64,000 nt of DNA from an uncultured Gammaproteobacteria bacterium (GCA_913009875.1 CAJVYS010000001.1:20578-84577), one strand, 5' to 3'. Shown: positions 7,305-51,256, counted from the first letter of the stretch. Numbers and translations: made by a program. The notes: generated by a model from the sequence alone, not told the origin.

Positions 7305-7385
7305 GTAGGATGCGGTGAAGAATGAACCGCATCAATCGCGCAAAGTTTCTCGACAGATGCGGTTCGCAGGCTCACCACATCCTAC
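7305..7385. repeat. REPIN, family E GTAGGATGCGGTGAA...GAACCGCATC
   Basis: Imperfect inverted pair 7305-7333 / 7356-7385; related half copies at 26805 and 30218. Confidence 0.75.
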
Positions 7386-7835: not shown

Positions 7836-7994
7836 ATGAAACAAACAACCATCCAGCAAATACTCTGGGGCGTGCTATTCACGGGTTTTCTGGGGGCCGC
7901 CAATGCGGCAGAGTTTGACATCGACGTTTTGTTTGACGGCGTCGATGCCAACCCGGGTGACGGCGCCTGCGCCACAGCAAGTAGGTTGGGGTGA
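7836..7994 (+). pseudogene. 5' fragment of a secreted CSLREA-like repeat protein, truncated at a REPIN
   Basis: Signal peptide (MKQTT...AANA) then DGVDANPGDGACATA, the usual lead-in to the CSLREA motif; frame runs into GTAGG REP at 7981 and stops. Confidence 0.6.
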
Positions 7995-8149
7995 ATGTTT
8001 TTTATGAACCCCAACATGCCAGAACAACAATACGCCTCAAAAACCATGCTCAAGCCACCACAAACAAATTCACTTCGATTTTCAAAGCCAAAAAATATCC
8101 ACATTCCAAGTTATGAACGTGCTGGGGTTCGTGCCTCACCCCAACCTAT
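7981..8149. repeat. Long REPIN, family C (GTAGGTTGGGGTGA...ACCCCAAC), left copy of a direct repeat
   Basis: Inverted REP ends with an approx. 100-bp spacer; closely similar, spacer included, to 11437-11610. Confidence 0.85.
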
Positions 8150-8276
8150 CGAGCTTTGCCATATGAACCAGATCCATTTCGTCTACGCGCTCATGCAACG
8201 AAATCTGAGGAAAGAAAAACCGGATCCATGAAAGATCGCCGCAATAATTAAGTATTGTGAACCCTTATTTTTCAAT

Positions 8277-8714
8277 CTACCCTTGATCATTCAGTACAGA
8301 GGCTTGCTCCGCCTCCCACTTTGTTTCTTTTGATACTTTTTTTAACGAACTAAGCAACATTTCAAAAGATGTTTTCATCATCAGATTTCCAGAACTCTCA
8401 TCGATATACTGACACATATCCCAATCTTTTTTGGCCGATTCCTCGATTCTCTCACAACTGGAAATCTCCCGATTTATTTCAGCCACAAGACTCTCAATGA
8501 AATATTTTTCTGCATTCCGATAGTCTGGATCACTCCCTTCGGCAGAAACAAGTGTTGCTGAATTCTCATGCTTAAAGACTAATGTAATATTGTATTTACA
8601 ATACTTCCGTTCTGCTGAAGCCACTATAATTGTGGCTCCTTTTAAACATAGCGATATACGATAAAGAGTCTTGTTTAATATTTTGGTAAGAGACAGATAA
8701 TTTCTGGGATTCAT
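8277..8714 (-). CDS. Hypothetical protein (AT-rich)
   Basis: 145-aa ORF whose start overlaps the stop of the upstream gene (ATGA); no recognised motif. Confidence 0.55.
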   Translation of the reverse strand: MNPRNYLSLTKILNKTLYRISLCLKGATIIVASAERKYCKYNITLVFKHENSATLVSAEGSDPDYRNAEKYFIESLVAEINREISSCERIEESAKKDWDMCQYIDESSGNLMMKTSFEMLLSSLKKVSKETKWEAEQASVLNDQG

Positions 8715-10345
8715 TCTTCAACCTCTAATAACGCCTCTAGCTCTTGAGTCTCATCCCATTGATTTTTAGATATCACTTTCTGCAGCTTAACTTCCCCATG
8801 AATCTCACAGACTGCATCTTCTATTTCTTCCAAAGTGACTCTAAAAAACTCTCTTCGGCAATTCACCTTATTCACGCGACGTTTTTCAAACCGTTTATGA
8901 AGTTTTCTTTCTAGTCCAGGGGCATCCTCACTTTGGATTATTCCATGCACATCAAAGAAAAATGGAACCGAGGCATCGCCTAGTTCTTTTACTCGATCCA
9001 TCGGCTCAAGACGCCTCGTCATGCCTATTTTGTATATTTCATCCCCAAACGAACCTTTATTACTGATTATATAAACATATCCAGAACGTGTGAGTTGAGC
9101 CATCGACAGGGCCCTTTCTTTTTCATTTACCGCAACCTCCAACAAACGTTTTAACCGGCCTATTTCTTCATTAAGAATGCCAATCTCTTCGCCTGCTTTA
9201 TTCTTTAAATCTTCTTCAGCAAACCTTAAAGCATTAGCATACTCTTTCTCCTCCTTCTCCCTATCCTTGACAAATTCTTCAATTTCTTTCTGAACTCTAT
9301 TTTCTTCACGAATGCTTTCCTGAATATATCTTTGTTCCTCTTTTTCAAACCTAACTTGAAGGTGGTATCCAAATACAAGCTTAAGCTCTTCTAAACGTAG
9401 CTTTAAATATTCCCTCTCAATACGAATGAAGTTATCTTCGCTATACTTATTTATTCTGGAAAACCATTTTTCAATTTTCTTATGCATTGAAACGTAATTT
9501 GAATGCTTAACATTACCAATAATATTGTCAACCTCTGCATTGAACGCAATCAACATAAATTTTGCTGCTCTATTCTGGCGAGCTTTGCCAGCCCGCAAGC
9601 TATAATTCCATTCGATATCACCAAACTGTTTCCAAGCTTTCTTTTCTTTAATAAAGAATCTTTGAAGAACCTTATTATCATCAATCATTCCTCGAACTTG
9701 GTCACTCCCCATGCCATCAAATTTTTGTATGTTTTCGGATATACTTCCAATCTCATCATAATACTCAACTTCGAGGTTTAAATTGGAAAGCTCCGATTTC
9801 TTTCTATTCACATCATTGCTTAGAGAATTGATAGTGTCTTGAATTTTCTCAAGATTTTCCGGCAGCATTATCTCCTTTAATTTTTTAATACTCTCCAGTT
9901 GTTTTTCTTTTTCCACCCCAGACTGTTTTAGGGTAATATTTTCCTTAAGAAGGTCATTGAGTTTTTCATCAATCTCCAAGGATTTACTTTCTTTTTCTAC
10001 CCCAGACCGCTTAAGGACAGTATTTTCTTGAAGCAGATTGTTAAGCTTTCCTTCAATCTCTAAGAATTTACTTTCTTTTTCTGCCCCAGACCGATTTAGA
10101 TCAACGTTTTCTTGAAACAGATCATTAAACTTCCCTTCAAACTCCAATAATTTACTTTCTTTTTCTGCCCCAGACCGCTTAAGGACAGTATTTTCTTGAA
10201 GCAGATTGTTAAGCTTTCCTTCAAACTCCAATAATTTACTTTCTTTTTCTGTCCCAGACCGCTTAAGGACAGTATTTTCTTGAAGCAGATTGTTAAGCTT
10301 TCCTTCAATCTCTAAGAATTTACTTTCTTTTACGAGTCCTAACAC
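8711..10345 (-). CDS. DUF4041 / T5orf172 (GIY-YIG-like, MUG113) domain protein with N-terminal coiled-coil repeats
   Basis: C-terminal GYVYIISNKGSFG..YKIGMTRR..RVKELGDASVPF.FDVH...LE..LH......REFF; RBS AAGGAGA upstream. Confidence 0.85.
   Translation of the reverse strand: MLGLVKESKFLEIEGKLNNLLQENTVLKRSGTEKESKLLEFEGKLNNLLQENTVLKRSGAEKESKLLEFEGKFNDLFQENVDLNRSGAEKESKFLEIEGKLNNLLQENTVLKRSGVEKESKSLEIDEKLNDLLKENITLKQSGVEKEKQLESIKKLKEIMLPENLEKIQDTINSLSNDVNRKKSELSNLNLEVEYYDEIGSISENIQKFDGMGSDQVRGMIDDNKVLQRFFIKEKKAWKQFGDIEWNYSLRAGKARQNRAAKFMLIAFNAEVDNIIGNVKHSNYVSMHKKIEKWFSRINKYSEDNFIRIEREYLKLRLEELKLVFGYHLQVRFEKEEQRYIQESIREENRVQKEIEEFVKDREKEEKEYANALRFAEEDLKNKAGEEIGILNEEIGRLKRLLEVAVNEKERALSMAQLTRSGYVYIISNKGSFGDEIYKIGMTRRLEPMDRVKELGDASVPFFFDVHGIIQSEDAPGLERKLHKRFEKRRVNKVNCRREFFRVTLEEIEDAVCEIHGEVKLQKVISKNQWDETQELEALLEVEE
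9911..10330 (-). repeat. Intragenic tandem repeat, 5 x 84 bp (28 aa KESKxLExEGKLNNLLQENTVLKRSGxE)
   Basis: Directly visible in protein and DNA. Confidence 0.9.
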
Positions 10346-10515
10346 AATCTCTCCTTAAAAACATAACCTCACCAACAGCCAGCAACCCAAATCTAACACC
10401 ACCAAGAAAGGGAGCCAAGATCACACCTGCGCTTCGATAATATTCCTTATTACGCATAGCATCGAACTCAGCCAAGGAATCTCGCGTTGCAGCCTGCACC
10501 GAATAAAATGTAGCG

Positions 10516-11291
10516 TTATACATATTTGATATCCATTAGGAATGAGTTTCCAGCAAACTCGGCTCGACCAAGGCGTACATGGCTAAGTGCCGGATCGGAA
10601 AGCAAGGATTTAACGAGAGCATAATCTCCTCCGGAAATTTTCTTTCCCACAATAACTTCCTTGATCAGTTCTCTCGGTATACAAACAACACCCGGCTCAC
10701 GCCGTATAATTCTGTATTCATCCTCGTATTTCCAATGCTTAGATTTTGTTCCTAACACAGACATCACAACATCTACGAACATATGATCTTTGTTTATAGA
10801 GCTTCCTTCGGCTTCGCGCTTGATGTACCGTAATACCACCTCATGGAAGTCCGGCATATCCTTATACGAAACAGGCTGAGAACTAATCAGTTGGTTTGAC
10901 TCCCATTCACTCTCAACAAAATCTTCCATACGTTGCTTATCAAGACCGACGCAAAAACCCGCGTGACCACCGGAATAATGAGACCACATCAGTGGTTCCT
11001 TTTCTGTTAACGAGAACGACAACACTCCAGCTTTATTGGCACGGCCCTCTATGGCATACAACAGCTCATTTTTTCTCCAGTAATCTTGTCGTCTACTTCT
11101 CGTTTCAATACCTCACGTATAGTTTCGTGCATATACTCATCGGCTAATTTCTCAACCATCCTACGCACTCCGTCCGGCGAAAAACTACAATCAAGAGGAT
11201 CATTTAATTGACACGGTTTTGCAAAATATAATTCGCCGCTAGAAATAAGCCGCAAACCAAAACTATTTATATCTCGATATTTATACAGCAT
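10516..11291 (-). pseudogene. DUF2971-family protein split by a single frameshift
   Basis: N-half MLYKYR...NDPLDC (11049-11291) and C-half LMWSHY..GH.GFC...KSKHWKYEDEYR (10516-11061); frames switch at T6 run 11069-11074. Confidence 0.75.
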
Positions 11292-11397
11292 GCACATTGC
11301 CCTATAAGGTATGAAATTTGAATATTGACGCAACTGATCGCCAGATATAAGAAGACGTAAGGCGTATTAGCGGTTAAATCCTTGGTTAAAGAAGCAA

Positions 11398-11427
11398 GTA
11401 GCCTGGGTTGAGCTTGCGAAACCCGGG
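11398..11427. repeat. REP singlet, family F GTAGCCTGGGTTGAGCTTGCGAAACCCGGG
   Basis: GTAG followed by imperfect hairpin, immediately before a family C REPIN. Confidence 0.55.
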
Positions 11428-11436
11428 AAGCAGCAA

Positions 11437-11610
11437 GTAGGTTGGGGTGAATGTTTTTTTATGAACCCCAACATGCCAGAACAACAATCCACCTCAAAAA
11501 CCATGTTCAAGCAATCACAAACAAATCCATTTCAATTTTCAAAGCCAAAAAATATCCACGTTCCGCGTTATGAACGTGTTGGGGTTCGTGCCTCCCTCCC
11601 TCCAACTTAC
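11437..11610. repeat. Long REPIN, family C, right copy of the direct repeat
   Basis: Same orientation and similar spacer as 7981-8149; 3' REP degenerate. Confidence 0.85.
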
Positions 11611-11614
11611 CGAA

Positions 11615-11902
11615 CTAAAATTTCTGTGTCCACCGTCTTCTAGCGTGCGGTACGCGTAAGATTTCAATCCTCTTGTCACGAACCCGATACGGTAAAATGT
11701 AAGGGGTGTGATCAATGACAAGTTCCTTGGTATTTGATATTCGCCCGGGTCTTCCAATGCCCGGCTGTTCGCTTAATAAAGAAACAGCACCTTTGATTCT
11801 CAAAACAACTTGATGAGCAGTCTGGGGGTTGTCCTGGGTAATGTAATCCTTAATCGATTCCAAATCCCGAACAGCCATTTTAAACCAGACAATCCTCATC
11901 AT
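11615..11902 (-). CDS. RelE/ParE family toxin
   Basis: IVW...A..DL..I..YI..DNP..A......I......L...P..GR.G.....RELVI...PYIL.YRV. Confidence 0.9.
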   Translation of the reverse strand: MMRIVWFKMAVRDLESIKDYITQDNPQTAHQVVLRIKGAVSLLSEQPGIGRPGRISNTKELVIDHTPYILPYRVRDKRIEILRVPHARRRWTQKF

Positions 11903-12168
11903 GATGGGGGCTGGCTCTCCTGGTCGGTTCCCCAGGTTTCCATCCAGGCCATGACGATATCGTTATCAACAAATTGATCCGGGCCCGCAGAATCGGCTTC
12001 AGCCACGGCTTGTTTGATGTCCTGTACCTGCCATTCATTATTCTCCAGGAACAACTTGAGTGCCTGCATGGCCAAATATGACTTTGAGCGATCAGTCGCG
12101 CCTGCCAGGTTTGACAGGCGGTCATTGGTTTCATCATCAAGGCGAAGCGTCATCGTTGTAGTCATCAT
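11899..12168 (-). CDS. CopG/ribbon-helix-helix antitoxin
   Basis: TMTLRLDDE...RL..LA....RSKSYL; overlaps toxin start. Confidence 0.85.
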   Translation of the reverse strand: MMTTTMTLRLDDETNDRLSNLAGATDRSKSYLAMQALKLFLENNEWQVQDIKQAVAEADSAGPDQFVDNDIVMAWMETWGTDQESQPPS

Positions 12169-12269
12169 GATTCTCCTGCGTTCACGTGTATCATGACAAG
12201 CCCGTCAATCAATCAGCTGCGGGGAATTAAACCCCAAGCGATTAAAAGCACCTATTAGGCGACATCTTC

Positions 12270-12536
12270 TCAACTGGCCTTTCGATGGCTATTCATGTAT
12301 TCACGCAACGCTTGATTGATACGGGTCTGATACTTGTTGCCTTGCTCGCGAAACCATTCCAGCATGTCGGCATCGAGGCGCAATGTTACCTGTTTTTTCA
12401 TGGGCCGATAGAATTTACCCACCTCGGCACCGGCCCAGTCTGTGACCTCTGGAATGTCGGATGTATCAATATCACTATCTGACTGCTTAGCCAGACTGGC
12501 AACTTCCTCTCGCTGTTTTTTATCCGGCTTGTTCAT
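12270..12536 (-). CDS. brnA: BrnA family antitoxin
   Basis: DIDTSDIPE...KKQVTLRLDADML.WFR..G..YQTRINQALR. Confidence 0.9.
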   Translation of the reverse strand: MNKPDKKQREEVASLAKQSDSDIDTSDIPEVTDWAGAEVGKFYRPMKKQVTLRLDADMLEWFREQGNKYQTRINQALREYMNSHRKAS

Positions 12537-12804
12537 ATCTTTGCCTCTCTCGTTTGGTCGCTTTGCGAGCGGAAATAATACGGATTAGCTCGAAGTCATC
12601 CTGCTCGCGGTATGCGTGGGCAACCAGAAGCACCACCACCCCATCCACCAGACCCAAGGTCTGCCAGCGCTCCTCCCCGCACTCGTGCCGGTTCTGCACG
12701 CTGATGGCATGTGGGTCGTCAAACACAAGCCGTGCCGTCTCGAAGCTTACGCCGTGTTTGGCGCAGTTAGTCTTATTTTTAGTTTCGTCCCACGCAAACC
12801 GCAT
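12520..12804 (-). CDS. brnT: BrnT family toxin
   Basis: F.WDE.KN..N..KHGVSF..A..VF.DP......E.R..TLG...RIISARKAT..ER. Confidence 0.92.
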   Translation of the reverse strand: MRFAWDETKNKTNCAKHGVSFETARLVFDDPHAISVQNRHECGEERWQTLGLVDGVVVLLVAHAYREQDDFELIRIISARKATKRERQRYEQAG

Positions 12805-12812
12805 AAGTTGAT

Positions 12813-12835
12813 TGTAGTTACGATAATGTAGTTAC
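12813..12835. promoter_or_regulatory. Putative brnTA autoregulatory operator
   Basis: TGTAGTTAC direct repeat at 12813 and 12827 just upstream of brnT. Confidence 0.4.
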
Positions 12836-12853
12836 ACAAGGTGCTTTTTCATT

Positions 12854-12864
12854 GGGGGGGGGGG
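12854..12864. repeat. G11 homopolymer upstream of brnT
   Basis: Directly visible. Confidence 0.8.
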
Positions 12865-12979
12865 CGTCCCGCTATTCATTAACGATCATGACCAACAATC
12901 ATCAGTCCGCAGGGCTGACAATAGAACCTGCCAGCTCAAGTTCGGTGTGTATTTGAGTGCAGCCCGCGCAGGCAATAAA

Positions 12980-14026
12980 TCAGGCTCTCTCCATCATCGC
13001 CCGCATCCTTTCCGCATCGGGATTCAGCACCACGCCGCGCTCGGTAACGATGGCGTCGACCAACGCTGCCGGTGTGACATCAAAGGCGGGATTCCAGGCC
13101 TCCGCGCCCACTGCTGCAATGCGCTGGCCAGTCAGGTACAGCACCTCATCGGGCGAGCGTTGCTCAATGGTAACGTCGTCACCACAGGTGATGCCCATGT
13201 CCACCGTGGAGGCCGGCGCCACGACCATAAACTTCACCCCGTGGTGACGTGCCAGCACTGCCAGACCATAGGTGCCGATCTTGTTGACCACGTCGCCATT
13301 GGCGGCGATGCGGTCGGAACCGACGATCACCCAGCCCACCTTGCCCTGTTTCATCAGGTGCGCCGCCGCGCCTTCGGCCTGCAGGGTCACGGGGATGCCC
13401 TCCTGCACCATCTCCCAGGCGGTGAGCCGCGCACCCTGCATCCACGGGCGGGTCTCGTCGGCATAGACGTGGGTGATCTTGCCGGCTGCGAAACCGGCCC
13501 GCACCACGCCCAGCGCCGTGCCGTAACCGCCGGTGGCCAGGGCGCCAGCGTTGCAGTGGGTGAGTATCGCGCAGGGGGTCTCGATGAGGGCCGCGCCCAA
13601 TTCACCCATGCGCCGGTTGGCGGCGATATCGTCGTCGTGAATACGCCGGGCCGCCGCCAGCAACGTGGACTCGGGATTGCCATCGATGTCCGCCATCAGC
13701 TCACGCATGCGCTCAATGGCCCAGAACAGGTTCACCGCCGTGGGGCGCGATGCCGCCAGGGTTTGCAGATCTGCCTCGATGGCTGGTTTCCAGCCATCCG
13801 GTGACTGTGCGAAACGCGCCCGTGCCGCCAGCACGATGCCATAGGCCGCCGTGATACCAATCGCCGGCGCGCCACGCACCACCATGTCGCGGATGGCCCC
13901 GGCCACGGCATCGACATCGCCATAGCTCAGATAGGCGACCTCTTGCGGCAGCACGCGCTGATCCAGCAGCTGCAATCTATTCCCCTGCCAGCGTACCGCC
14001 TCCACCGTGTCGGCCTGATCAGTCAT
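12980..14026 (-). CDS. mtnA: S-methyl-5-thioribose-1-phosphate isomerase
   Basis: [45 protein letters not shown]. Confidence 0.97.
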
Positions 14027-14148
14027 GTTGAGTCCTCGTCACTATGAATAATGAAATCCGCAAAAACGGTACATGATAACGAAAGCGCACGGGGACGACA
14101 CCGCCGGACAACTTGCCCCACGCACACCGCAAACGCTATCTTCCCCCC

Positions 14149-15495
14149 ATGCAAACGACACCTGAAACCATCGACACCCTGATCCACGCCCGCTGGGTGA
14201 TCCCGGTCGAGCCCCACGACAGTGTGCTGGATCACCACGCCATCGCCATTCACGAAGGCCGCATCGTCGAGCTGCTGCCCAGCCAGGAGGCTGACGAAAA
14301 GTATCAAGCCGAGGTCGAATACCGACTCGACCGCCATGCCCTGATCCCCGGCCTGGTCAACGCCCATACCCACGCCGCCATGTCCCTGTTCCGCGGCCTC
14401 GCCGACGACCTGCATCTCATGGACTGGCTGCAGAACCACATCTGGCCCGCCGAGGGCAAATGGATCAGCCCGGAATTCGTCGCCGACGGCAGCCGTCTGG
14501 CCATCGCCGAGATGCTGCGCGGTGGTACCACCTGTTTCAACGACATGTATTTCTTCCCGGATGAGACCGCACGCGTAGCCGACAACGCCGGCATGCGCGC
14601 CATGGTCGGCCTGATCCTCATCGATTTCCCCACCGTGTGGGCAGCCAACGCCGATGACTATCTGCACAAGGGCATCGAGGTGCACGACCACTACCGTCAT
14701 CACCCACTGATCCACACCGCTTTCGCTCCCCACGCGCCCTACACTGTATCCGACGACCCCCTGCAGCGCGTGGTCACCTTCGCCGAGGAAATGGACCTGC
14801 CCATTCACATGCATGTGCACGAAACCGCGCACGAGGTCGAGGAAGCCAGCGCCCAAAGTGGCCTGCGCCCCCTGGCGCGCCTCACTCGGCTGGGCCTGCT
14901 GTCGCCACGCCTGGCAGCGGTGCACATGACCCAGCTCAGCGACGGCGAGATCGCCCAGCTCGCCGGCAGCGGCGCCAGCGTGGTGCATTGCCCGGAATCC
15001 AACCTCAAGCTGGCCAGCGGCTTCTGTCCGGTGCAGAAACTGCTCGATGCCGGGGTCAACGTGGCACTGGGAACCGACGGCGCCGCCAGCAACAACGACC
15101 TGGACATGTTCAGTGAAATGCGCAGCGCCGCCCTGCTCGGCAAGGCCGTGGCCGGTGACGCCAGCGCCGTGACCGCCGCCCAGACCCTGCGCATGGCCAC
15201 CCTTGGCGGCGCACGTGCGCTGGGCCTCGACGACACTATCGGCTCACTCACACCCGGCAAGGCCGCCGACATCACCGCCATCAACCTCGGCGCACTGGAG
15301 ACGCAACCCGTCTACCATCCCATCTCACAACTGGTCTACGCCGCCGGCCGCGAACAGGTCAGCGACGTGTGGGTGGCCGGCCGGCATTTACTCAAGGCAC
15401 GTGAACTCACCACGCTCAACCAGACGTCAATCATAGAAAAGGCCCATGCCTGGGCGGAGAAGATTCAAGCCGCCGATGAGCATCTGGGTGATTGA
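14149..15495 (+). CDS. mtaD: TRZ/ATZ family amidohydrolase (MTA/SAH deaminase-like)
   Basis: PGLVNAHTH, HMHVHET, HCPESNLKLASG, GTDGAASNN; divergent from mtnA; likely start MQTTPE. Confidence 0.85.
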   Translation: MQTTPETIDTLIHARWVIPVEPHDSVLDHHAIAIHEGRIVELLPSQEADEKYQAEVEYRLDRHALIPGLVNAHTHAAMSLFRGLADDLHLMDWLQNHIWPAEGKWISPEFVADGSRLAIAEMLRGGTTCFNDMYFFPDETARVADNAGMRAMVGLILIDFPTVWAANADDYLHKGIEVHDHYRHHPLIHTAFAPHAPYTVSDDPLQRVVTFAEEMDLPIHMHVHETAHEVEEASAQSGLRPLARLTRLGLLSPRLAAVHMTQLSDGEIAQLAGSGASVVHCPESNLKLASGFCPVQKLLDAGVNVALGTDGAASNNDLDMFSEMRSAALLGKAVAGDASAVTAAQTLRMATLGGARALGLDDTIGSLTPGKAADITAINLGALETQPVYHPISQLVYAAGREQVSDVWVAGRHLLKARELTTLNQTSIIEKAHAWAEKIQAADEHLGD

Positions 15496-15513: not shown

Positions 15514-15593
15514 GTAGGTTGGGCAAAGCACAGCGTGCCCAACGTTCCGTGCACCCCGTTGGGCACGTCGCTTCGCTCCTTTGCCCAACCTAC
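15514..15593. repeat. REPIN, family D GTAGGTTGGGCAAAG...GTGCCCAAC, 3' flank of RAYT
   Basis: Inverted REP pair ending 10 bp from the RAYT stop. Confidence 0.85.
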
Positions 15594-15602
15594 GGAGGTG
15601 TC

Positions 15603-16139
15603 TTATTCGCAATCGATGCCTTTGATGTTTTCCGGCTCTGTTGTTCCCCAATTTGGGGGGTACCATCCTTTTTGTACGCATCGTTTGAATGAGCTGTATG
15701 GCCATTCACCGGGTGCTTGGGTGTGGCCGTGCCTGACCGGGTTGTAATGGATGTAATCCATGTGTCTTTGCCAATCGTTGTCATCACGGATGATGTGTTC
15801 CCAAAAACGTCTCTGCCAGACTGGTTTTTCCCGCTTGTTATGGCGTGAGGTTGATTGCTGCTCTACGGCACCAACACAACCGCTGCTGAAATAGCGTTTG
15901 ATTCTTCTCCAGCGGGTCGAGTAATCATTGTCGCCTTCCGGCAAACGCCAAAGCGTGTGCAGATGATCGGGCAGGATGACAATGGCGTCGATGGTGAAGG
16001 GGTATTTTTCCATTTCCCTTTTGAAGGCAACCCTCAGGCGATTGATATTCTCTGGAAGCGAGAGGATGTTCTGGCGCCGATAGGTAACGACGGTGAAGAA
16101 GTAGCTGCCACCTTGCTGTTGTGATCTGCGGTATTTCAT
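15603..16139 (-). mobile_element. REP-associated tyrosine transposase (RAYT, TnpA-REP; HUH Y1 family)
   Basis: GGSYFFTVVT, LPDHLH (HUH), WQRRFWEHIIRD, YIHYNPVRHG; flanked by REPs on both sides. Confidence 0.95.
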
Positions 16140-16167
16140 GGTGTTTTGGCATTGTGGGGGGTGGGTT

Positions 16168-16203
16168 GTTGGGCACGTCGCTGCGCTCCTTTGCCCAACC
16201 TAC
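16168..16203. repeat. REP singlet, family D, 5' flank of RAYT
   Basis: GTTGGGCACGTCGCTGCGCTCCTTTGCCCAACCTAC, one mismatch to the REP at 15558-15593. Confidence 0.85.
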
Positions 16204-19950: not shown

Positions 19951-20072
19951 GTAGGGTGGGCACTTTAATTTAGAAAAGTAGGTTGGGGTGAACGTTTTTT
20001 GTGAACCCCAACATGCGGAGTGACGCCCGACCTCCGAGGTGACGTTGGGGTTCGTTCCTCACCCCAACCTAC
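19951..20072. repeat. Half family B REP (19951-19963) followed by family C REPIN (19978-20072)
   Basis: GTAGGGTGGGCAC then GTAGGTTGGGGTGA...TCACCCCAACCTAC. Confidence 0.8.
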
Positions 20073-20149
20073 GGGCTAGTTTGGTCTTTCCGAATACTGG
20101 GGGTTAGTGGGGATTGGGGTTTTAGAGGCTGCCGGTTACCCGATTAGCC

Positions 20150-20482
20150 TTATTTTTTTCTTACCAGTCGATCAAGCAAAATATCTTCGACGTTTCGATG
20201 CGAGTCAATAACCAACAGCACATAAACTTGAAATTCTGATATGCGGTAAATTACCCGCCAGGGAGGAATTATCAATTCTCGATATTGAAGAATGCCATAT
20301 CCCTTAAGCTCTGGGACAACCCGCCCCCGCTGTGGAGAGGAACCAAGGCTTGAAGTCTTGCTTTTTATTCTTTTAAGGTTATCTTTTGCTGCCGCTGGAC
20401 TATCCGCATGAATGTACTCAAGAATAGATCTCAGATCTTCCCTGGCAATGTCAGCCCAATAAACCTTATATTCGTTTGCCAT
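20150..20482 (-). CDS. RelE/ParE family toxin
   Basis: YKVYW...A.EDL..I..YI..DSP..A......P.RGRVVPEL....YRELI..PWRVIYRI. Confidence 0.9.
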   Translation of the reverse strand: MANEYKVYWADIAREDLRSILEYIHADSPAAAKDNLKRIKSKTSSLGSSPQRGRVVPELKGYGILQYRELIIPPWRVIYRISEFQVYVLLVIDSHRNVEDILLDRLVRKK

Positions 20483-20485
20483 CCT

Positions 20486-20767
20486 TTACGAACCCACCAG
20501 TTTCCCCAGTTCTGAAAATACTTCACTTTGCGTTTTTGATTTTCCATTACGAATATCTTCTTCACCCAGAGATATAAGTTTTAATATCCCTATTGCATTA
20601 CGCATATTTTCATAACTTTCGGGATCTTGAAGCACCGCTCTCGGCTCACCATTTTGGGTAATGATAATTGGCCGATGGGTTTCATTCACCTGCTTCAGCA
20701 TATCGGCAGCCTTGGACTTAAGAAATGATACAGGTTTAATATCAGTGGAAATTTTCATAACAATCAC
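20486..20767 (-). CDS. Phd/YefM family antitoxin
   Basis: DIKPVS.LK..AA..L..V....RPIIITQNGEP.AVL. Confidence 0.9.
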   Translation of the reverse strand: MIVMKISTDIKPVSFLKSKAADMLKQVNETHRPIIITQNGEPRAVLQDPESYENMRNAIGILKLISLGEEDIRNGKSKTQSEVFSELGKLVGS

Positions 20768-20903
20768 CTCAGTCTTTTTACAGTACCATATTAAGACTGA
20801 CTGTCAACTCATCAGAGGATGGCGGAGGTAGGCGACACAGGAATCCAGGAATCAAGGCCGAGGAGCCTATCCTGTCTCCGGGACCGCACAGCATGTGGCA
20901 AAC

Positions 20904-21053
20904 GTGAAGTTGTCCTCGGACGACAGGGATCAGCAGCCAGTTCTGAACGAAGAGCTACTGAAACGAGTCCTGTCACCCGCGAACCTTCACGCAGCCTGGA
21001 AGCAAGTGCGAAAGATCACTGACGAAACGCTCTTGGGCTGGCGCAGCAGATAA
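20904..21053 (+). pseudogene. Probable N-terminal remnant of a group II intron reverse transcriptase
   Basis: Manual frame from GTG 20904: ...EELLKRVLSPANLHAAWKQVR, like the RT0 start of class C intron RTs (LLERIL..DNL..A.KRV); similarity ends abruptly. Confidence 0.5.
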
Positions 21054-21103
21054 GGAGGGCGCGCCTTATGCGCCCACACGGGGCCGCGCGTAAAATTCGC
21101 ATC

Positions 21104-21251
21104 GTAGGGTGGGCGCCGCCCACCCTACTTGGCTGCGCGATAACTTGTGGGAGCGACTTTAGTCGCGAAGATTAAACCAGAATTTTTTCGCGGCTGAAGC
21201 CGCTCCCACCAGTGAGTAGGTTGGGGTGAGCGTTTTTTTGTGAACCCCAAC
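21104..21251. repeat. Mixed REP cluster: family B (21104-21128), A (21147-21209), C (21216-21251)
   Basis: Three distinct GTAG/GTGG hairpin families within 150 bp. Confidence 0.8.
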
Positions 21252-21375
21252 ATGCAGAGTAACGCCGACCTTCGCTCCTCGATAGTTTTTTCCTAACATT
21301 TTGTATTGAACGTCCGTATCAGTCGCCCATTTGCCCCCTTTCATCACCAGCTATTTCAAGGTGTGATACCCGACA

Positions 21376-26620: not shown

Positions 26621-26760
26621 CGGCCGGAGCGGTTATGTGTAGGGTGGGGGAAGCTCCCCTCGCTTGGCCCCTTCGGGATTTCCCGGCCCGTTTGCTTGGG
26701 TCGGAATCTTGGTATTTAATGGCTGGCGAAAGCCGTGGAGTTTTATTGGGCGGAAGTCAT

Positions 26761-26837
26761 GTAGGGTGGGCACGTTTTGTGTGCCCACGCGGAATTGCTC
26801 GAACGATGCGGTTCGCTACCGTTCATCAGCATCCTAC
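26761..26837. repeat. Hybrid REP pair: family B (26761-26787) and inverted family E (26805-26837)
   Basis: GTAGGGTGGGCAC...GTGCCCAC and GATGCGGTTCGCTACCGTTCATCAGCATCCTAC. Confidence 0.75.
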
Positions 26838-26850
26838 ATAGGCGACTGAA

Positions 26851-27168
26851 TCAGATCCCTGAGACAATCAGATCAATGGCATCAATAAATTCAGATCGAT
26901 AATCTGAAACATTGGCAACTTCGGCGCCCAACAATGTCCTGTCTATCCCGGCAAGTTGTTGCGTGAGAGCTGCGTATTTGACGCCATCAATTTCCACGAT
27001 TGGGCAAAGTTTTGTTATGACCTGCTCTTTTACTACGGAGTATTTTCCGAGCGGGACAACGATGGTTGTGCGAAGCTGGTCCAAAAGATCCGATTGAATA
27101 TCGAGCAGATAGGGGAAGGTCTTTTTCGTTCTGGGATTCTTGTTTTTATAGACGGTAAACTGACTCAT
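26851..27168 (-). CDS. ccdB: CcdB family toxin
   Basis: MSQF.VY.N......FPYLLDIQSDLL..L.T.IVVPL.........L.P...IDG......TQQLAGI. Confidence 0.88.
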   Translation of the reverse strand: MSQFTVYKNKNPRTKKTFPYLLDIQSDLLDQLRTTIVVPLGKYSVVKEQVITKLCPIVEIDGVKYAALTQQLAGIDRTLLGAEVANVSDYRSEFIDAIDLIVSGI

Positions 27169-27410
27169 CAGAAGCGCCTGATGCCATCGCTAAAAACCCC
27201 CTCCTCCTCCACAAAATCGTTATAGACCTGAATCGCCTTTGCGTTTTCCTGAAGCCAGCGTTCTCTTTGTTTAATCTTTATTCGTCTGGCAAGCTCATAT
27301 TCAAGTGTGGCGGAAAGATTGATATTCATCTCGCGCGCCGTTGAAAGCAAGTCGCTGTTTATTGAGACATTTGTTGGTTTCTTGGGGGCTTTGCTGTTGT
27401 AGGCTTTCAT
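27168..27410 (-). CDS. ccdA: CcdA family antitoxin
   Basis: KKPTNVSIN.DLL..AR...INLSA.LE..L.......W..EN..AI..YN.FVE..G.F. Confidence 0.9.
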   Translation of the reverse strand: MKAYNSKAPKKPTNVSINSDLLSTAREMNINLSATLEYELARRIKIKQRERWLQENAKAIQVYNDFVEEEGVFSDGIRRF

Positions 27411-51157: not shown

Positions 51158-51241
51158 GTAGGTTGGGGTGAGGTACGAACCCCAACAGCGGCAGTTTGCC
51201 AAAACCTCGATTGTTGGGGTTCGTACCTCACCCCAACCTAC
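51158..51241. repeat. REPIN, family C, inside the operon
   Basis: Perfect 30-bp inverted repeat between radical SAM gene and hemY. Confidence 0.9.
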
Positions 51242-51256
51242 AACTAGAAGTAAAAC

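What the first reader, a model, noticed from the sequence alone, without database searches (positions are those of the whole stretch)
7981..11610. AT-rich cargo bracketed by two long direct-repeat REPINs: a REPIN composite element
Seen: 169-bp and 174-bp elements with similar internal spacers, same orientation, both preceded by CAGCAA, enclosing 3.3 kb of visibly AT-rich genes; the left copy cuts a coding sequence. Established: REPINs are non-autonomous, RAYT-mobilised and usually carry no genes. Inference: gene capture by RAYT acting on the outer REPs or by recombination between REPIN copies, which would be a little-described route of horizontal transfer.
Basis: partly seen in the sequence, partly recalled or inferred. 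Interest (0 to 1): 0.75.

Follow-up and report, generated by a model that had tools for sequence, protein, structure and literature searches.

The report
REPIN pair flanking a defence islet
Two copies of a small native repeat (a long-spacer REPIN) do bracket 3.3 kb of foreign, AT-rich anti-phage genes in a marine bacterium, but nothing shows that the repeats moved the genes as one unit; it looks like an ordinary variable gene hotspot whose joints hold the host's own repeats.

Summary
Two direct copies, 7981-8149 (169 nt) and 11437-11610 (174 nt), are 92% identical. Each is a head-to-head dimer of the lineage's own GTAG-type REP with a ~100-nt AT-rich spacer. Independent metagenome assemblies reproduce both junctions.

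The cargo (GC 0.38, flanking core genes about 0.62) is a small defence cassette. It holds a PD-Lambda-1/SNIPE nuclease, a frameshifted PDC-S31/DUF2971 gene and two small ORFs, and no mobility gene.

In 39 of 45 relatives, mtnA and gyrA lie 125-300 bp apart; here the gap is 5.95 kb. A sister species has a 1104+ aa secreted Calx-beta protein gene where the window keeps only 47 codons. So the block replaced about 3.3 kb of DNA instead of simply inserting. Homology breaks 3-4 nt from the outer REP heads.

Evidence against a RAYT-driven composite:
- The copies differ by 8%, and about 12% in the spacer.
- The outer right REP is decayed.
- No second copy of the unit was found in any collection.
- Homologous long REPINs elsewhere are solo copies between housekeeping genes.
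- A 99.5%-identical strain diverges 64 nt inside the left REPIN.

Best reading: a hotspot islet with native REPINs at its joints. A role for the REPINs in recombination remains possible but is not shown.

The parts
7836..7977 (+). 5' remnant (47 codons, signal peptide) of a secreted beta-helix/Calx-beta protein gene
   Evidence: ORF list. About 79% nt identity to the start of the 1104+ aa gene in L011, with homology ending at 7977. The L011 protein matches Calx-beta and Chlam_PMP.
7975..8155 (+). REPIN_L: long-spacer REPIN (core 7981-8149, 169 nt) with tails CAGCAA and CGAGCT. The left REP is intact; the right REP head is ATAGG.
   Evidence: It folds in ssDNA as one long hairpin with the two REPs paired (dG -20.3, z -3.0). 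REP hairpins are -7.2 and -5.4 kcal/mol.
8150..8214 (.). 64-nt segment of unknown origin between REPIN_L and the cargo
   Evidence: GC 0.47 against 0.34-0.38 for the cargo. It is not the continuation of the truncated gene. It is present in L090-L092 but replaced by unrelated sequence in L083.
8277..8714 (-). 145-aa ORF overlapping the stop of the SNIPE-like gene; possible partner protein
   Evidence: No Pfam, PADLOC or NCBIfam hit. It is 27% identical (E 4e-5) to the ORF that follows a SNIPE homologue in an Oceanospirillaceae MAG.
8711..10345 (-). PD-Lambda-1/SNIPE-family defence nuclease (DUF4041 + T5orf172/MUG113 GIY-YIG-like domain), 544 aa
   Evidence: Pfam. PADLOC PD-Lambda-1, E 1.5e-123. 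The closest relative outside this population is at most 58% identical.
9904..10331 (-). 84-nt in-frame tandem repeat (5.1 copies) encoding the N-terminal coiled coil of the SNIPE-like protein
   Evidence: The variant strain has two fewer units (P0001, 488 aa).
10320..10523 (-). 67-aa ORF with a hydrophobic segment, overlapping the start of the SNIPE-like gene
   Evidence: It is 100% conserved in L082, L083, L093 and L094. It matches no family.
10516..11291 (-). PDC-S31/DUF2971 candidate defence gene, inactivated here by a -1 frameshift in an A-run near 11075
   Evidence: Pfam DUF2971. The intact 258-aa allele in L083 hits PADLOC PDC-S31 at E 8e-42. The indel was located.
11398..11428 (+). REP singlet of a related type (GTAGCCTGGGTT...AACCCGGG), head-to-tail with REPIN_R
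   Evidence: (family D5).
11431..11616 (+). REPIN_R: long-spacer REPIN (core 11437-11610, 174 nt). The left REP is intact. The outer right REP is decayed (4-nt insertion, head GTAAG). Its tail supplies the parE stop codon.
   Evidence: It does not fold as a REPIN. The right REP hairpin is only -3.6 kcal/mol.
11615..12168 (-). parE toxin (11615-11902) and RHH antitoxin (11899-12168)
   Evidence: Pfam ParE_toxin, RHH_1 and TraY. Present in L011, and as a remnant in L002.
12270..12804 (-). brnA antitoxin (12270-12536) and brnT toxin (12520-12804)
   Evidence: Pfam. Conserved at 90% nt identity in L002.
15603..16139 (-). RAYT (REP-associated tyrosine transposase), flanked by a different REP subfamily (GTAGGTTGGGCAAAGG...)
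   Evidence: NCBIfam NF047646, 201 bits against a cut-off of 80. Flanking REPs.

Best explanation
The region is a strain-variable anti-phage and toxin-antitoxin islet. It has grown inside the normally ~170-bp mtnA-gyrA spacer of an uncultured marine gammaproteobacterium.

The two 169/174-nt elements are genuine REPINs: head-to-head dimers of the lineage's own GTAG-type REP, of a long-spacer subfamily. They are two already-diverged members of that family, not the twin arms of a recently built transposon. Each sits immediately downstream of a minus-strand transcription unit (parE for REPIN_R, the defence operon for REPIN_L). This is the same position the homologous element holds at trmL-gpsA in another organism.

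The ~3.1-kb low-GC cargo holds PDC-S31/DUF2971, a 67-aa membrane ORF, a PD-Lambda-1/SNIPE nuclease and a 145-aa ORF. It was acquired horizontally by an unidentified route and lies next to REPIN_R. A resident secreted beta-helix/Calx-beta gene was lost except for its first 47 codons, and one end of that deletion coincides with REPIN_L. The likely cause is recombination between dispersed REPIN copies or breakage at a REP end.

Shown: the identity of the repeats, the cargo, the resident gene, the position of the joints, the population polymorphism and the hotspot nature of the locus. Inferred: the order of events, and that the REPIN took part in the deletion and did not merely land there.
For: - REP family and REPIN anatomy.
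- The same REP family forms short REPINs in the window (19978-20073, 51158-51242) and in sister species L002 (20825-20908), so it is native.
- Homologous long-spacer REPINs (77-85% identical) occur as single copies between the convergent housekeeping genes trmL and gpsA in three metagenome contigs, with no cargo.
- The two copies differ by 8% overall and about 12% in the spacer. Their left REPs are identical apart from one extra T in the loop. Strains of this population differ by only 0.3-0.6%.
- Hotspot: mtnA and gyrA are 125-300 bp apart in 39 of 45 relatives. The gap is 5951 bp here, and other lineages hold unrelated cargo there (Fic, Wzz-like, copper resistance).
- L011 shows the resident gene, and L002 shows another deletion state of the same spot.
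- The cargo is a defence cassette with no integrase or transposase.
- The compositional end of the cargo (8214) coincides with the break against strain L083, not with the REPIN.
- Other TA cassettes in the window also border REP/REPIN elements (20150-20767; 26851-27410).
Against: - Both outer limits of the DNA that is new relative to L011 fall within 3-4 nt of the outer REP heads. That is what a REP-delimited unit would give. It is a coincidence under purely independent insertions, at least for the left element, whose inner flank is not the resident gene.
- The ancestral state is inferred from a different species (MtnA 90% identical). No closer genome lacking the cargo was found.
- The whole-genome census of this REPIN subfamily is unknown, because only 64 kb is available.
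- The left flank of variant strain L083 is only 97 nt long. It cannot be told whether that strain still has REPIN_L further on.
Confidence: 0.5

Rival explanations
1. REPIN copies act as portable homology. The cassette was integrated or exchanged by homologous recombination through REPINs. One route is Campbell-type integration of a circle carrying one REPIN into a resident REPIN. Another is a double crossover in two REPINs. Both leave direct REPIN repeats around the cargo without any integrase.
For: - 170-nt direct repeats flank a cargo that has no mobility gene.
- The same long-spacer family exists in a different organism with 52% GC, so donors could carry it.
- The 8% divergence between the copies fits one resident and one incoming copy.
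- REP elements have been proposed as sites of homologous recombination for acquiring strain-specific genes (PMC3390384).
Against: - No donor was found. Cargo relatives outside this population are at most 58% identical in protein.
- The loss of 3.3 kb of resident gene needs a further step.
- DNA of different composition lies between each REPIN and the cargo: 64 nt on the left, and about 100-140 nt holding a REP singlet on the right.
- The L083 break lies at the cargo end, not in a REPIN.
Confidence: 0.2
2. A true REPIN composite. A RAYT treated the outer left REP of REPIN_L and the outer right REP of REPIN_R as the two ends of one giant REPIN, and transposed the 3.6-kb block as single-stranded DNA.
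For: - New DNA starts 3 nt before the outer GTAG and ends 4 nt after the outer REP head.
- The head-to-head geometry of the two outer REPs is correct.
- A RAYT gene lies 4 kb away.
- Pairs of non-autonomous elements are known to mobilise genes in other transposon classes (TIME-COMPs, PMC13367494).
Against: - It is a replacement, not an insertion.
- The outer right REP is decayed and REPIN_R does not fold.
- The right-REP heads read ATAG and GTAA in the window, and mutating GTAG abolishes RAYT cleavage in E. coli (as reported in PMC3733652).
- The copies are 8% diverged.
- The nearby RAYT is flanked by another REP subfamily.
- No second copy of the unit exists in GTDB genomes, JGI metagenomes or IMG/VR.
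- A near-identical strain has a different left junction.
- REPIN duplication is reported to be extremely slow (bioRxiv 10.1101/2024.07.17.603846).
Confidence: 0.1
3. The duplication is an assembly artefact (a collapsed or mis-joined repeat).
For: Repeats of about 170 nt often break or mis-join short-read assemblies. Several related contigs end at or near these repeats.
Against: - Four independent contigs from three samples span the junctions: L082 for parE-REPIN_R-cargo, and L090, L091 and L092 for cargo-REPIN_L.
- The two copies differ at 12 mismatched positions plus one indel, and each junction contig carries the copy-specific variant.
Confidence: 0.01

Closest known systems
REPINs / GTAG-type REP head-to-head dimers mobilised by RAYTs (Bertels & Rainey 2011, PMC3116915; Di Nocera et al. 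2013, PMC3733652)
   Same: Two inverted REP hairpins with GTAG heads on the outside. A conserved spacer. The whole element folds as a hairpin in ssDNA (left copy). Extragenic position abutting gene ends. A RAYT gene in the genome. The family is shared with a sister species.
   Different: The spacer (~100 nt, 38% GC) is at the upper end of the reported 20-100 bp range and about four times that of this genome's short REPINs. Two copies lie 3.3 kb apart in direct orientation around foreign genes. One copy lies inside a former coding sequence. One end of each copy carries a mutated GTAG.
Composite structures bounded by two non-autonomous elements: TIME-COMPs and integron mobilization units (PMC13367494)
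   Same: Two copies of a gene-less miniature element bracket cargo that has no transposase of its own.
   Different: Those elements are DDE-transposon derivatives and were shown to mobilise their cargo (PMC13367494 abstract). From general knowledge, not checked here, they also have target-site duplications and recur at several sites. Here there is no duplication, no recurrence and a decayed outer end. The putative enzyme is a single-strand HUH Y1 transposase, for which no composite has been described in the papers read.
REP/BIME-associated rearrangements and REP elements as recombination sites at strain-specific genes (proposed in Loper et al. 2012, PMC3390384)
   Same: Native REP-type repeats lie at the borders of strain-specific DNA that lacks the hallmarks of mobile elements. 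A deletion endpoint coincides with a REP element.
   Different: That paper finds horizontally acquired regions to be mostly REP deserts. Here REPINs abut the foreign DNA on both sides.
PD-Lambda-1 / SNIPE membrane-bound anti-phage nuclease (Nature 2026, PMC13190303)
   Same: DUF4041 followed by a GIY-YIG/T5orf172 nuclease domain. Strong match to both PADLOC PD-Lambda-1 models (E 1.5e-123).
   Different: No N-terminal transmembrane segment was seen by eye in the 544-aa ORF. Instead it has a 28-aa-repeat coiled coil whose copy number varies between strains, and a separate overlapping 67-aa hydrophobic ORF lies upstream. In the paper, 34% of homologues also lack a predicted TM domain.

Membership tests
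REPIN (REP doublet forming a hairpin) | [quoted passage not shown] | tested here: met
   Both copies have a left REP (GTAGGTTGGGGTGA...ACCCCAAC) and an inverted right REP.
REPIN (REP doublet forming a hairpin) | The whole element folds into one long hairpin as single-stranded DNA | tested here: inconclusive
   Met for REPIN_L (dG -20.3, z -3.0), for the homologues in L085 and L089, and for the short REPINs. Not met for REPIN_R, whose outer REP is decayed.
REPIN (REP doublet forming a hairpin) | GTAG tetranucleotide at the outer end of each REP (GTAG superfamily; needed for RAYT cleavage in E. coli per PMC3733652) | tested here: inconclusive
   Both left REPs have GTAG. The right REPs read ATAG (8149) and GTAA (11610) in the window. 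Strain L083 has GTAG in REPIN_R.
REPIN (REP doublet forming a hairpin) | Many copies per genome, mostly extragenic | tested here: inconclusive
   The REP 13-mer has 11 matches in 64 kb against 1.16 expected, and the family is present in sister species L002. The long-spacer subfamily has only 2 copies in the window. Elsewhere one locus type carries full-length copies and 3 loci carry partial ones. The whole genome is not available.
REPIN (REP doublet forming a hairpin) | A cognate RAYT gene flanked by the same REP | tested here: inconclusive
   A RAYT is present (NF047646, 201 bits). Its flanking REPs are a different subfamily, sharing only GTAGGTTGGG.
Composite transposon-like unit bounded by two non-autonomous elements | Both outer ends intact and recognisable by the transposase | tested here: not met
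   The outer right REP has a 4-nt insertion, a GTAAG head and a -3.6 kcal/mol hairpin, against -7 to -8 for intact REPs.
Composite transposon-like unit bounded by two non-autonomous elements | The same unit at more than one site, or an empty site whose two flanks are contiguous | tested here: not met
   No other occurrence was found. Sister species have 3.3 kb of other DNA (L011) or a different deletion (L002) at the site.
Composite transposon-like unit bounded by two non-autonomous elements | Excision or transposition of the whole unit | not testable with these tools
   This needs read-level data or experiments.
PD-Lambda-1 / SNIPE defence nuclease | DUF4041 domain followed by a GIY-YIG-type nuclease domain | tested here: met
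   Pfam DUF4041 (262-317) and T5orf172/MUG113 (422-513). PADLOC E 1.5e-123 over residues 102-538.
PD-Lambda-1 / SNIPE defence nuclease | N-terminal membrane anchor (present in 66% of homologues, PMC13190303) | not tested
   No TM predictor was run. By eye the N-terminus is a coiled-coil repeat, and the overlapping 67-aa ORF carries a hydrophobic stretch.
PD-Lambda-1 / SNIPE defence nuclease | Protection against phage | not testable with these tools
   This needs a plaque assay.

The most novel reading that the evidence does not exclude
The two long-spacer REPINs delimit a cassette site. Defence genes are swapped in and out, and resident DNA deleted, through the REP ends themselves. The mechanism would be RAYT cleavage and joining, or recombination between dispersed REPIN copies. 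That would make this a 'REPIN-COMP', the HUH/REPIN counterpart of MITE-bounded composites, and a route by which a vertically inherited, domesticated repeat system captures foreign genes.
Probability: 0.15. Interest if true: 0.75.

Novelty: new member of a known kind. Interest (0 to 1): 0.4.

Why it matters
REPINs are regarded as gene-less, slowly duplicating and vertically inherited. A REPIN pair that mobilises or exchanges defence genes would give them a role in horizontal gene flow and in building defence islands. The present evidence does not show that.

What the evidence does show:
- A well-documented hotspot (mtnA-gyrA) whose joints are occupied by native REPINs.
- A long-spacer REPIN subfamily conserved at 77-85% identity between organisms of 52% and 62% GC.
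- A polymorphic SNIPE-type defence cassette.

The locus is a good, small test case, because the decisive checks (circle junctions, a solo-REPIN allele, a genome-wide census) are simple once reads or a closed genome are at hand.

Tried and rejected
1. Exact search of GTDB species genomes for a spacer 24-mer (ATTTTCAAAGCCAAAAAN{0,3}TATCCAC) gave 0 hits.
2. Two REPIN patterns gave 0 hits in IMG/VR.
3. Rfam found nothing, on the region at E <= 1 or on the whole window at gathering scores. The spacer is therefore not a described RNA.
4. Exact-protein look-ups found nothing on record for MtnA, the SNIPE-like protein, or either version of the truncated ORF (52 and 91 aa). No contig with an alternative right flank of REPIN_L could be fetched.
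5. The closest homologues of the resident Calx-beta gene (P0124, P0125; at most 56% identical) sit in unrelated organisms of 41-43% GC with different neighbours. They say nothing about the empty site.
6. CAGCAA as a target-site duplication was rejected. Homology to L011 ends inside it, and AGCAAGTAG also precedes a neighbouring REP singlet.
7. 8150-8214 as the continuation or 3' end of the truncated gene was rejected. No reading frame resembles the homologues.
8. The L083 tail as xseB was only an N-terminal resemblance by eye (13 aa). No such gene is in the window, and the idea was dropped.
9. Assembly artefact was rejected.


Full report
**1. What is in the sequence.**
REPIN_L runs from the GTAG at 7981 to the inverted REP head ending at 8149 (169 nt). 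REPIN_R runs from 11437 to 11610 (174 nt). BLAST gives 92.1% identity over 164 nt (E 4e-64), and the ~100-nt spacer occurs nowhere else in the window.

Each element has three parts. A left REP hairpin (GTAGGTTGGGGTGAATG-T6/7-ATGAACCCCAAC) comes first. An A/C-rich spacer of 38% GC follows. An inverted right REP (GTTGGGGTTCGTGCCTCACCCCAACCTA) closes it.

The same REP forms two short REPINs (19978-20073 and 51158-51242) and a singlet (21216) in the window. The 13-mer core has 11 matches against 1.16 expected.

As single-stranded DNA, REPIN_L folds into one long hairpin with the REPs paired and the spacer as the loop. The short REPINs do the same. REPIN_R does not, because its outer REP carries a 4-nt insertion and substitutions (-3.6 kcal/mol against -7 to -8). 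In the window both right-REP heads are mutated (ATAG, GTAA).

A RAYT gene lies at 15603-16139 (NF047646, 201 bits). It is flanked by a different REP subfamily (GTAGGTTGGGCAAAGG...).

**2. The cargo.**
Between the repeats, GC falls to 0.38, against about 0.62 in gyrA and mtnA. All genes are on the minus strand:
- A DUF2971 gene that matches the PADLOC candidate system PDC-S31 (E 8e-42 for the intact allele). In the window it is broken by a -1 frameshift in an A-run near 11075.
- A 67-aa ORF with a hydrophobic stretch.
- A 544-aa DUF4041 + T5orf172/MUG113 protein that matches PD-Lambda-1 (E 1.5e-123). PD-Lambda-1 is the system now described as the membrane-bound nuclease SNIPE (PMC13190303).
- An overlapping 145-aa ORF. 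It is weakly similar to the ORF that follows a SNIPE homologue in an Oceanospirillaceae MAG.

There is no integrase, transposase or recombinase. Outside this population, the best SNIPE relatives are at most 58% identical.

**3. The locus and its relatives.**
The window comes from an uncultured marine gammaproteobacterium. The closest species representatives have MtnA 90% identical.

In 39 of 45 related genomes that carry both genes on one contig, mtnA and gyrA are separated by only 125-300 bp. Here the gap is 5951 bp, the largest seen. A few other lineages hold unrelated cargo in the same spacer: a Fic protein, a Wzz-like protein and copper-resistance genes. The spacer is therefore an occasional integration hotspot.

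Sister species L002 has mtnA-brnTA-(parDE remnant)-gyrA, with no REPIN of this kind there and no cargo.

Sister species L011 has mtnA-parDE, a hairpin terminator, and then a convergent 1104+ aa secreted Calx-beta/beta-helix protein gene. The window keeps only the first 47 codons of that gene (7836-7977).

Homology to L011 stops at 7977, 3 nt before the GTAG of REPIN_L. On the other side it stops at the parE stop codon, 4 nt from the head of REPIN_R's outer REP. The 64 nt just inside REPIN_L (8150-8214) does not continue the gene.

So, relative to the sister species, about 3.3 kb of resident DNA has been replaced by a 3.64-kb block that begins and ends with the two REPINs. This is not the footprint of a simple insertion.

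**4. Population evidence.**
Contigs from three independent metagenome samples reproduce both junctions (L082, L090, L091, L092; 99.7-100% identity). This excludes an assembly artefact.

A second strain type (L083, L093, L094) is 99.4-99.7% identical outside the tandem repeat. It has an intact PDC-S31 gene and two fewer 28-aa repeats in the SNIPE-like protein.

L083 shares parE-REPIN_R-cargo with the window but diverges at window 8214. That point lies just after a hairpin and T-run, noted by eye, that end the cargo operon, and 64 nt short of REPIN_L. Beyond it L083 carries unrelated sequence with a ribosome-binding site and a start codon. The break coincides with the compositional end of the cargo: 8215-8276 is 0.34 GC and 8151-8214 is 0.47 GC. 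The left frame of the cargo therefore varies among near-identical strains.

**5. The long-spacer REPIN elsewhere.**
An exact spacer 24-mer is absent from 596 Gb of species-representative genomes, and two REPIN patterns are absent from IMG/VR.

In JGI metagenomes a REP-spacer junction 24-mer found six loci. Three of them (L085, L088, L089) are one orthologous site in a 52%-GC organism. There a single full-length copy, 77-85% identical to the window copies, lies between the convergent housekeeping genes trmL and gpsA, and its GTAG supplies the trmL stop codon. In the same way the tail of REPIN_R supplies the parE stop codon.

The subfamily is therefore real and behaves as an ordinary extragenic REPIN where it is found alone.

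**6. Weighing the composite reading.**

In its favour:
- The outer limits of the new block coincide with the outer REP heads within 3-4 nt.
- The two outer REPs have the head-to-head geometry of a giant REPIN.
- A RAYT is nearby.
- The cargo has no mobility gene.
- Pairs of non-autonomous elements do mobilise genes in other transposon classes (TIME-COMPs; PMC13367494).

Against it:
- The event is a replacement, not an insertion.
- The copies differ by 8% (about 12% in the spacer, while their left REPs are identical apart from one extra T in the loop), although the strains differ by 0.3-0.6% and the cargo still has a GC content far below the host's. The copies are therefore old, separate family members and not a fresh duplication.
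- The outer right end is decayed, and GTAG heads are mutated. Mutating GTAG abolishes RAYT cleavage in E. coli, as summarised in PMC3733652.
- The RAYT in view is associated with another REP subfamily.
- No second instance exists in any collection searched.
- The L083 polymorphism lies at the cargo end and not at a REPIN.
- On the right side, the coincidence of joint and REPIN needs no special explanation. A REPIN inserted just after parE, in the usual convergent-gene niche, gives the same outer joint.
- Only the left element truly sits on a rearrangement joint.

**7. Conclusion.**
The most likely account (about 0.5) is a hotspot defence/TA islet whose non-coding joints are occupied by the host's own REPINs. 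A REP-associated deletion removed the resident secreted-protein gene.

Rival accounts:
- REPIN-homology-mediated integration or exchange of the cassette: about 0.2.
- RAYT transposition of the whole block: about 0.1.
- Assembly artefact: excluded.

The same window shows the general pattern. The ParE/Phd cassette at 20150-20767 lies between a REPIN and a REP cluster, and the CcdAB cassette at 26851-27410 lies next to REPs.

Spacers of 20-100 bp and intragenic REPs are already described for GTAG REP dimers (PMC3733652). REP elements have been proposed as recombination sites for strain-specific genes (PMC3390384). The finding is therefore a new member of known kinds. A small but testable chance remains that the REPINs do the joining.

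Noticed in passing
window 15514-16203: A RAYT gene (15603-16139, minus strand) is flanked by its own REP subfamily: a REPIN at 15514-15593 and a REP at about 16165-16203. It sits exactly where synteny with sister species L002 ends (window 15498). L002 has no RAYT within 8.5 kb of mtaD.
   Followed up: partly
window 19978-21275: A second low-GC cassette (ParE toxin 20150-20482, Phd/YefM antitoxin 20486-20767) is bracketed by REP elements. On one side is a short REPIN of the same REP family (19978-20073). On the other is a REP cluster (21104-21128, 21148-21210) plus a same-orientation REP singlet (21216-21255). By eye, about 20900-21020 resembles the N-terminus of a group II intron reverse transcriptase. 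Rfam found nothing there.
   Followed up: partly
window 26639-27410: A CcdA/CcdB toxin-antitoxin pair (26851-27410, low GC) lies directly next to two REPs of the GTAGGGTGGG type (26639, 26761).
   Followed up: partly
window 9904-10331; L083 1444-1703: The 84-nt in-frame tandem repeat in the N-terminal coiled coil of the SNIPE-like protein has 5.1 copies here. A strain 99.5% identical elsewhere has two fewer units (544 against 488 aa). The SNIPE paper reports the N-terminal region as the most variable part of the family.
   Followed up: partly
window ~11075 (within 10516-11291, minus strand): The PDC-S31/DUF2971 gene is broken by a 1-nt deletion in an A-run in the window and in L082. It is intact in L083 and L094 (sequence-checked) and is called full-length in L093. 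This is a presence/absence-of-function polymorphism within one population.
   Followed up: yes
window 10320-10523 (minus strand): A 67-aa ORF with a hydrophobic stretch overlaps the start of the SNIPE-like gene by 26 nt and is 100% conserved in four other contigs. It could be a separate membrane anchor for a SNIPE homologue that lacks its own transmembrane segment.
   Followed up: no
window 8100-8121 and 11557-11578 (minus strand): Inside the long spacer, just after the right REP as read on the minus strand, a 7-bp hairpin followed by GATATTTTTT matches the terminator pattern in both copies. Each copy lies just downstream of a minus-strand transcription unit. This could explain why the spacer is conserved. 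The motif is weaker in the L089 homologue.
   Followed up: partly
L089 12874-13050; L085 2276-2451; L088 5204-5336: The homologous long REPIN at trmL-gpsA in a 52%-GC organism is 77-85% identical to the copies in this ~62%-GC organism. That is unusually high conservation for a non-coding element across such different genomes. In L088 it has lost 12 nt of spacer and its right REP.
   Followed up: partly
L011 1238-1559: In the sister species, parE is interrupted by a ~322-nt insertion. It contains a REPIN of the GTAGGGTGGGCA type (1356-1429) and is bounded by perfect 33-nt direct repeats (1279-1311, 1522-1554).
   Followed up: partly
window 7305-7385: A REPIN of a third REP type (GTAGGATGCGGTGA...) lies between gyrA and the truncated gene. 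The near-identical metagenome contig L001 ends about 40 nt beyond it.
   Followed up: no
L092 597-740: The metagenome contig ends in Illumina adapter sequence (AGATCGGAAGAGCACACGTCTGAACTCCAGTCAC...) directly after the REP. This is adapter contamination in a public assembly.
   Followed up: no
L003 3694-4923; L009 11175-12293; L058 and L064 ~11000-15300: Other lineages carry unrelated cargo in the same mtnA-gyrA spacer: a Fic-domain protein, a Wzz-like chain-length protein, and a copper-resistance cluster (outer-membrane factor, multicopper oxidase, CusF-like). These were named by eye from the translations.
   Followed up: partly
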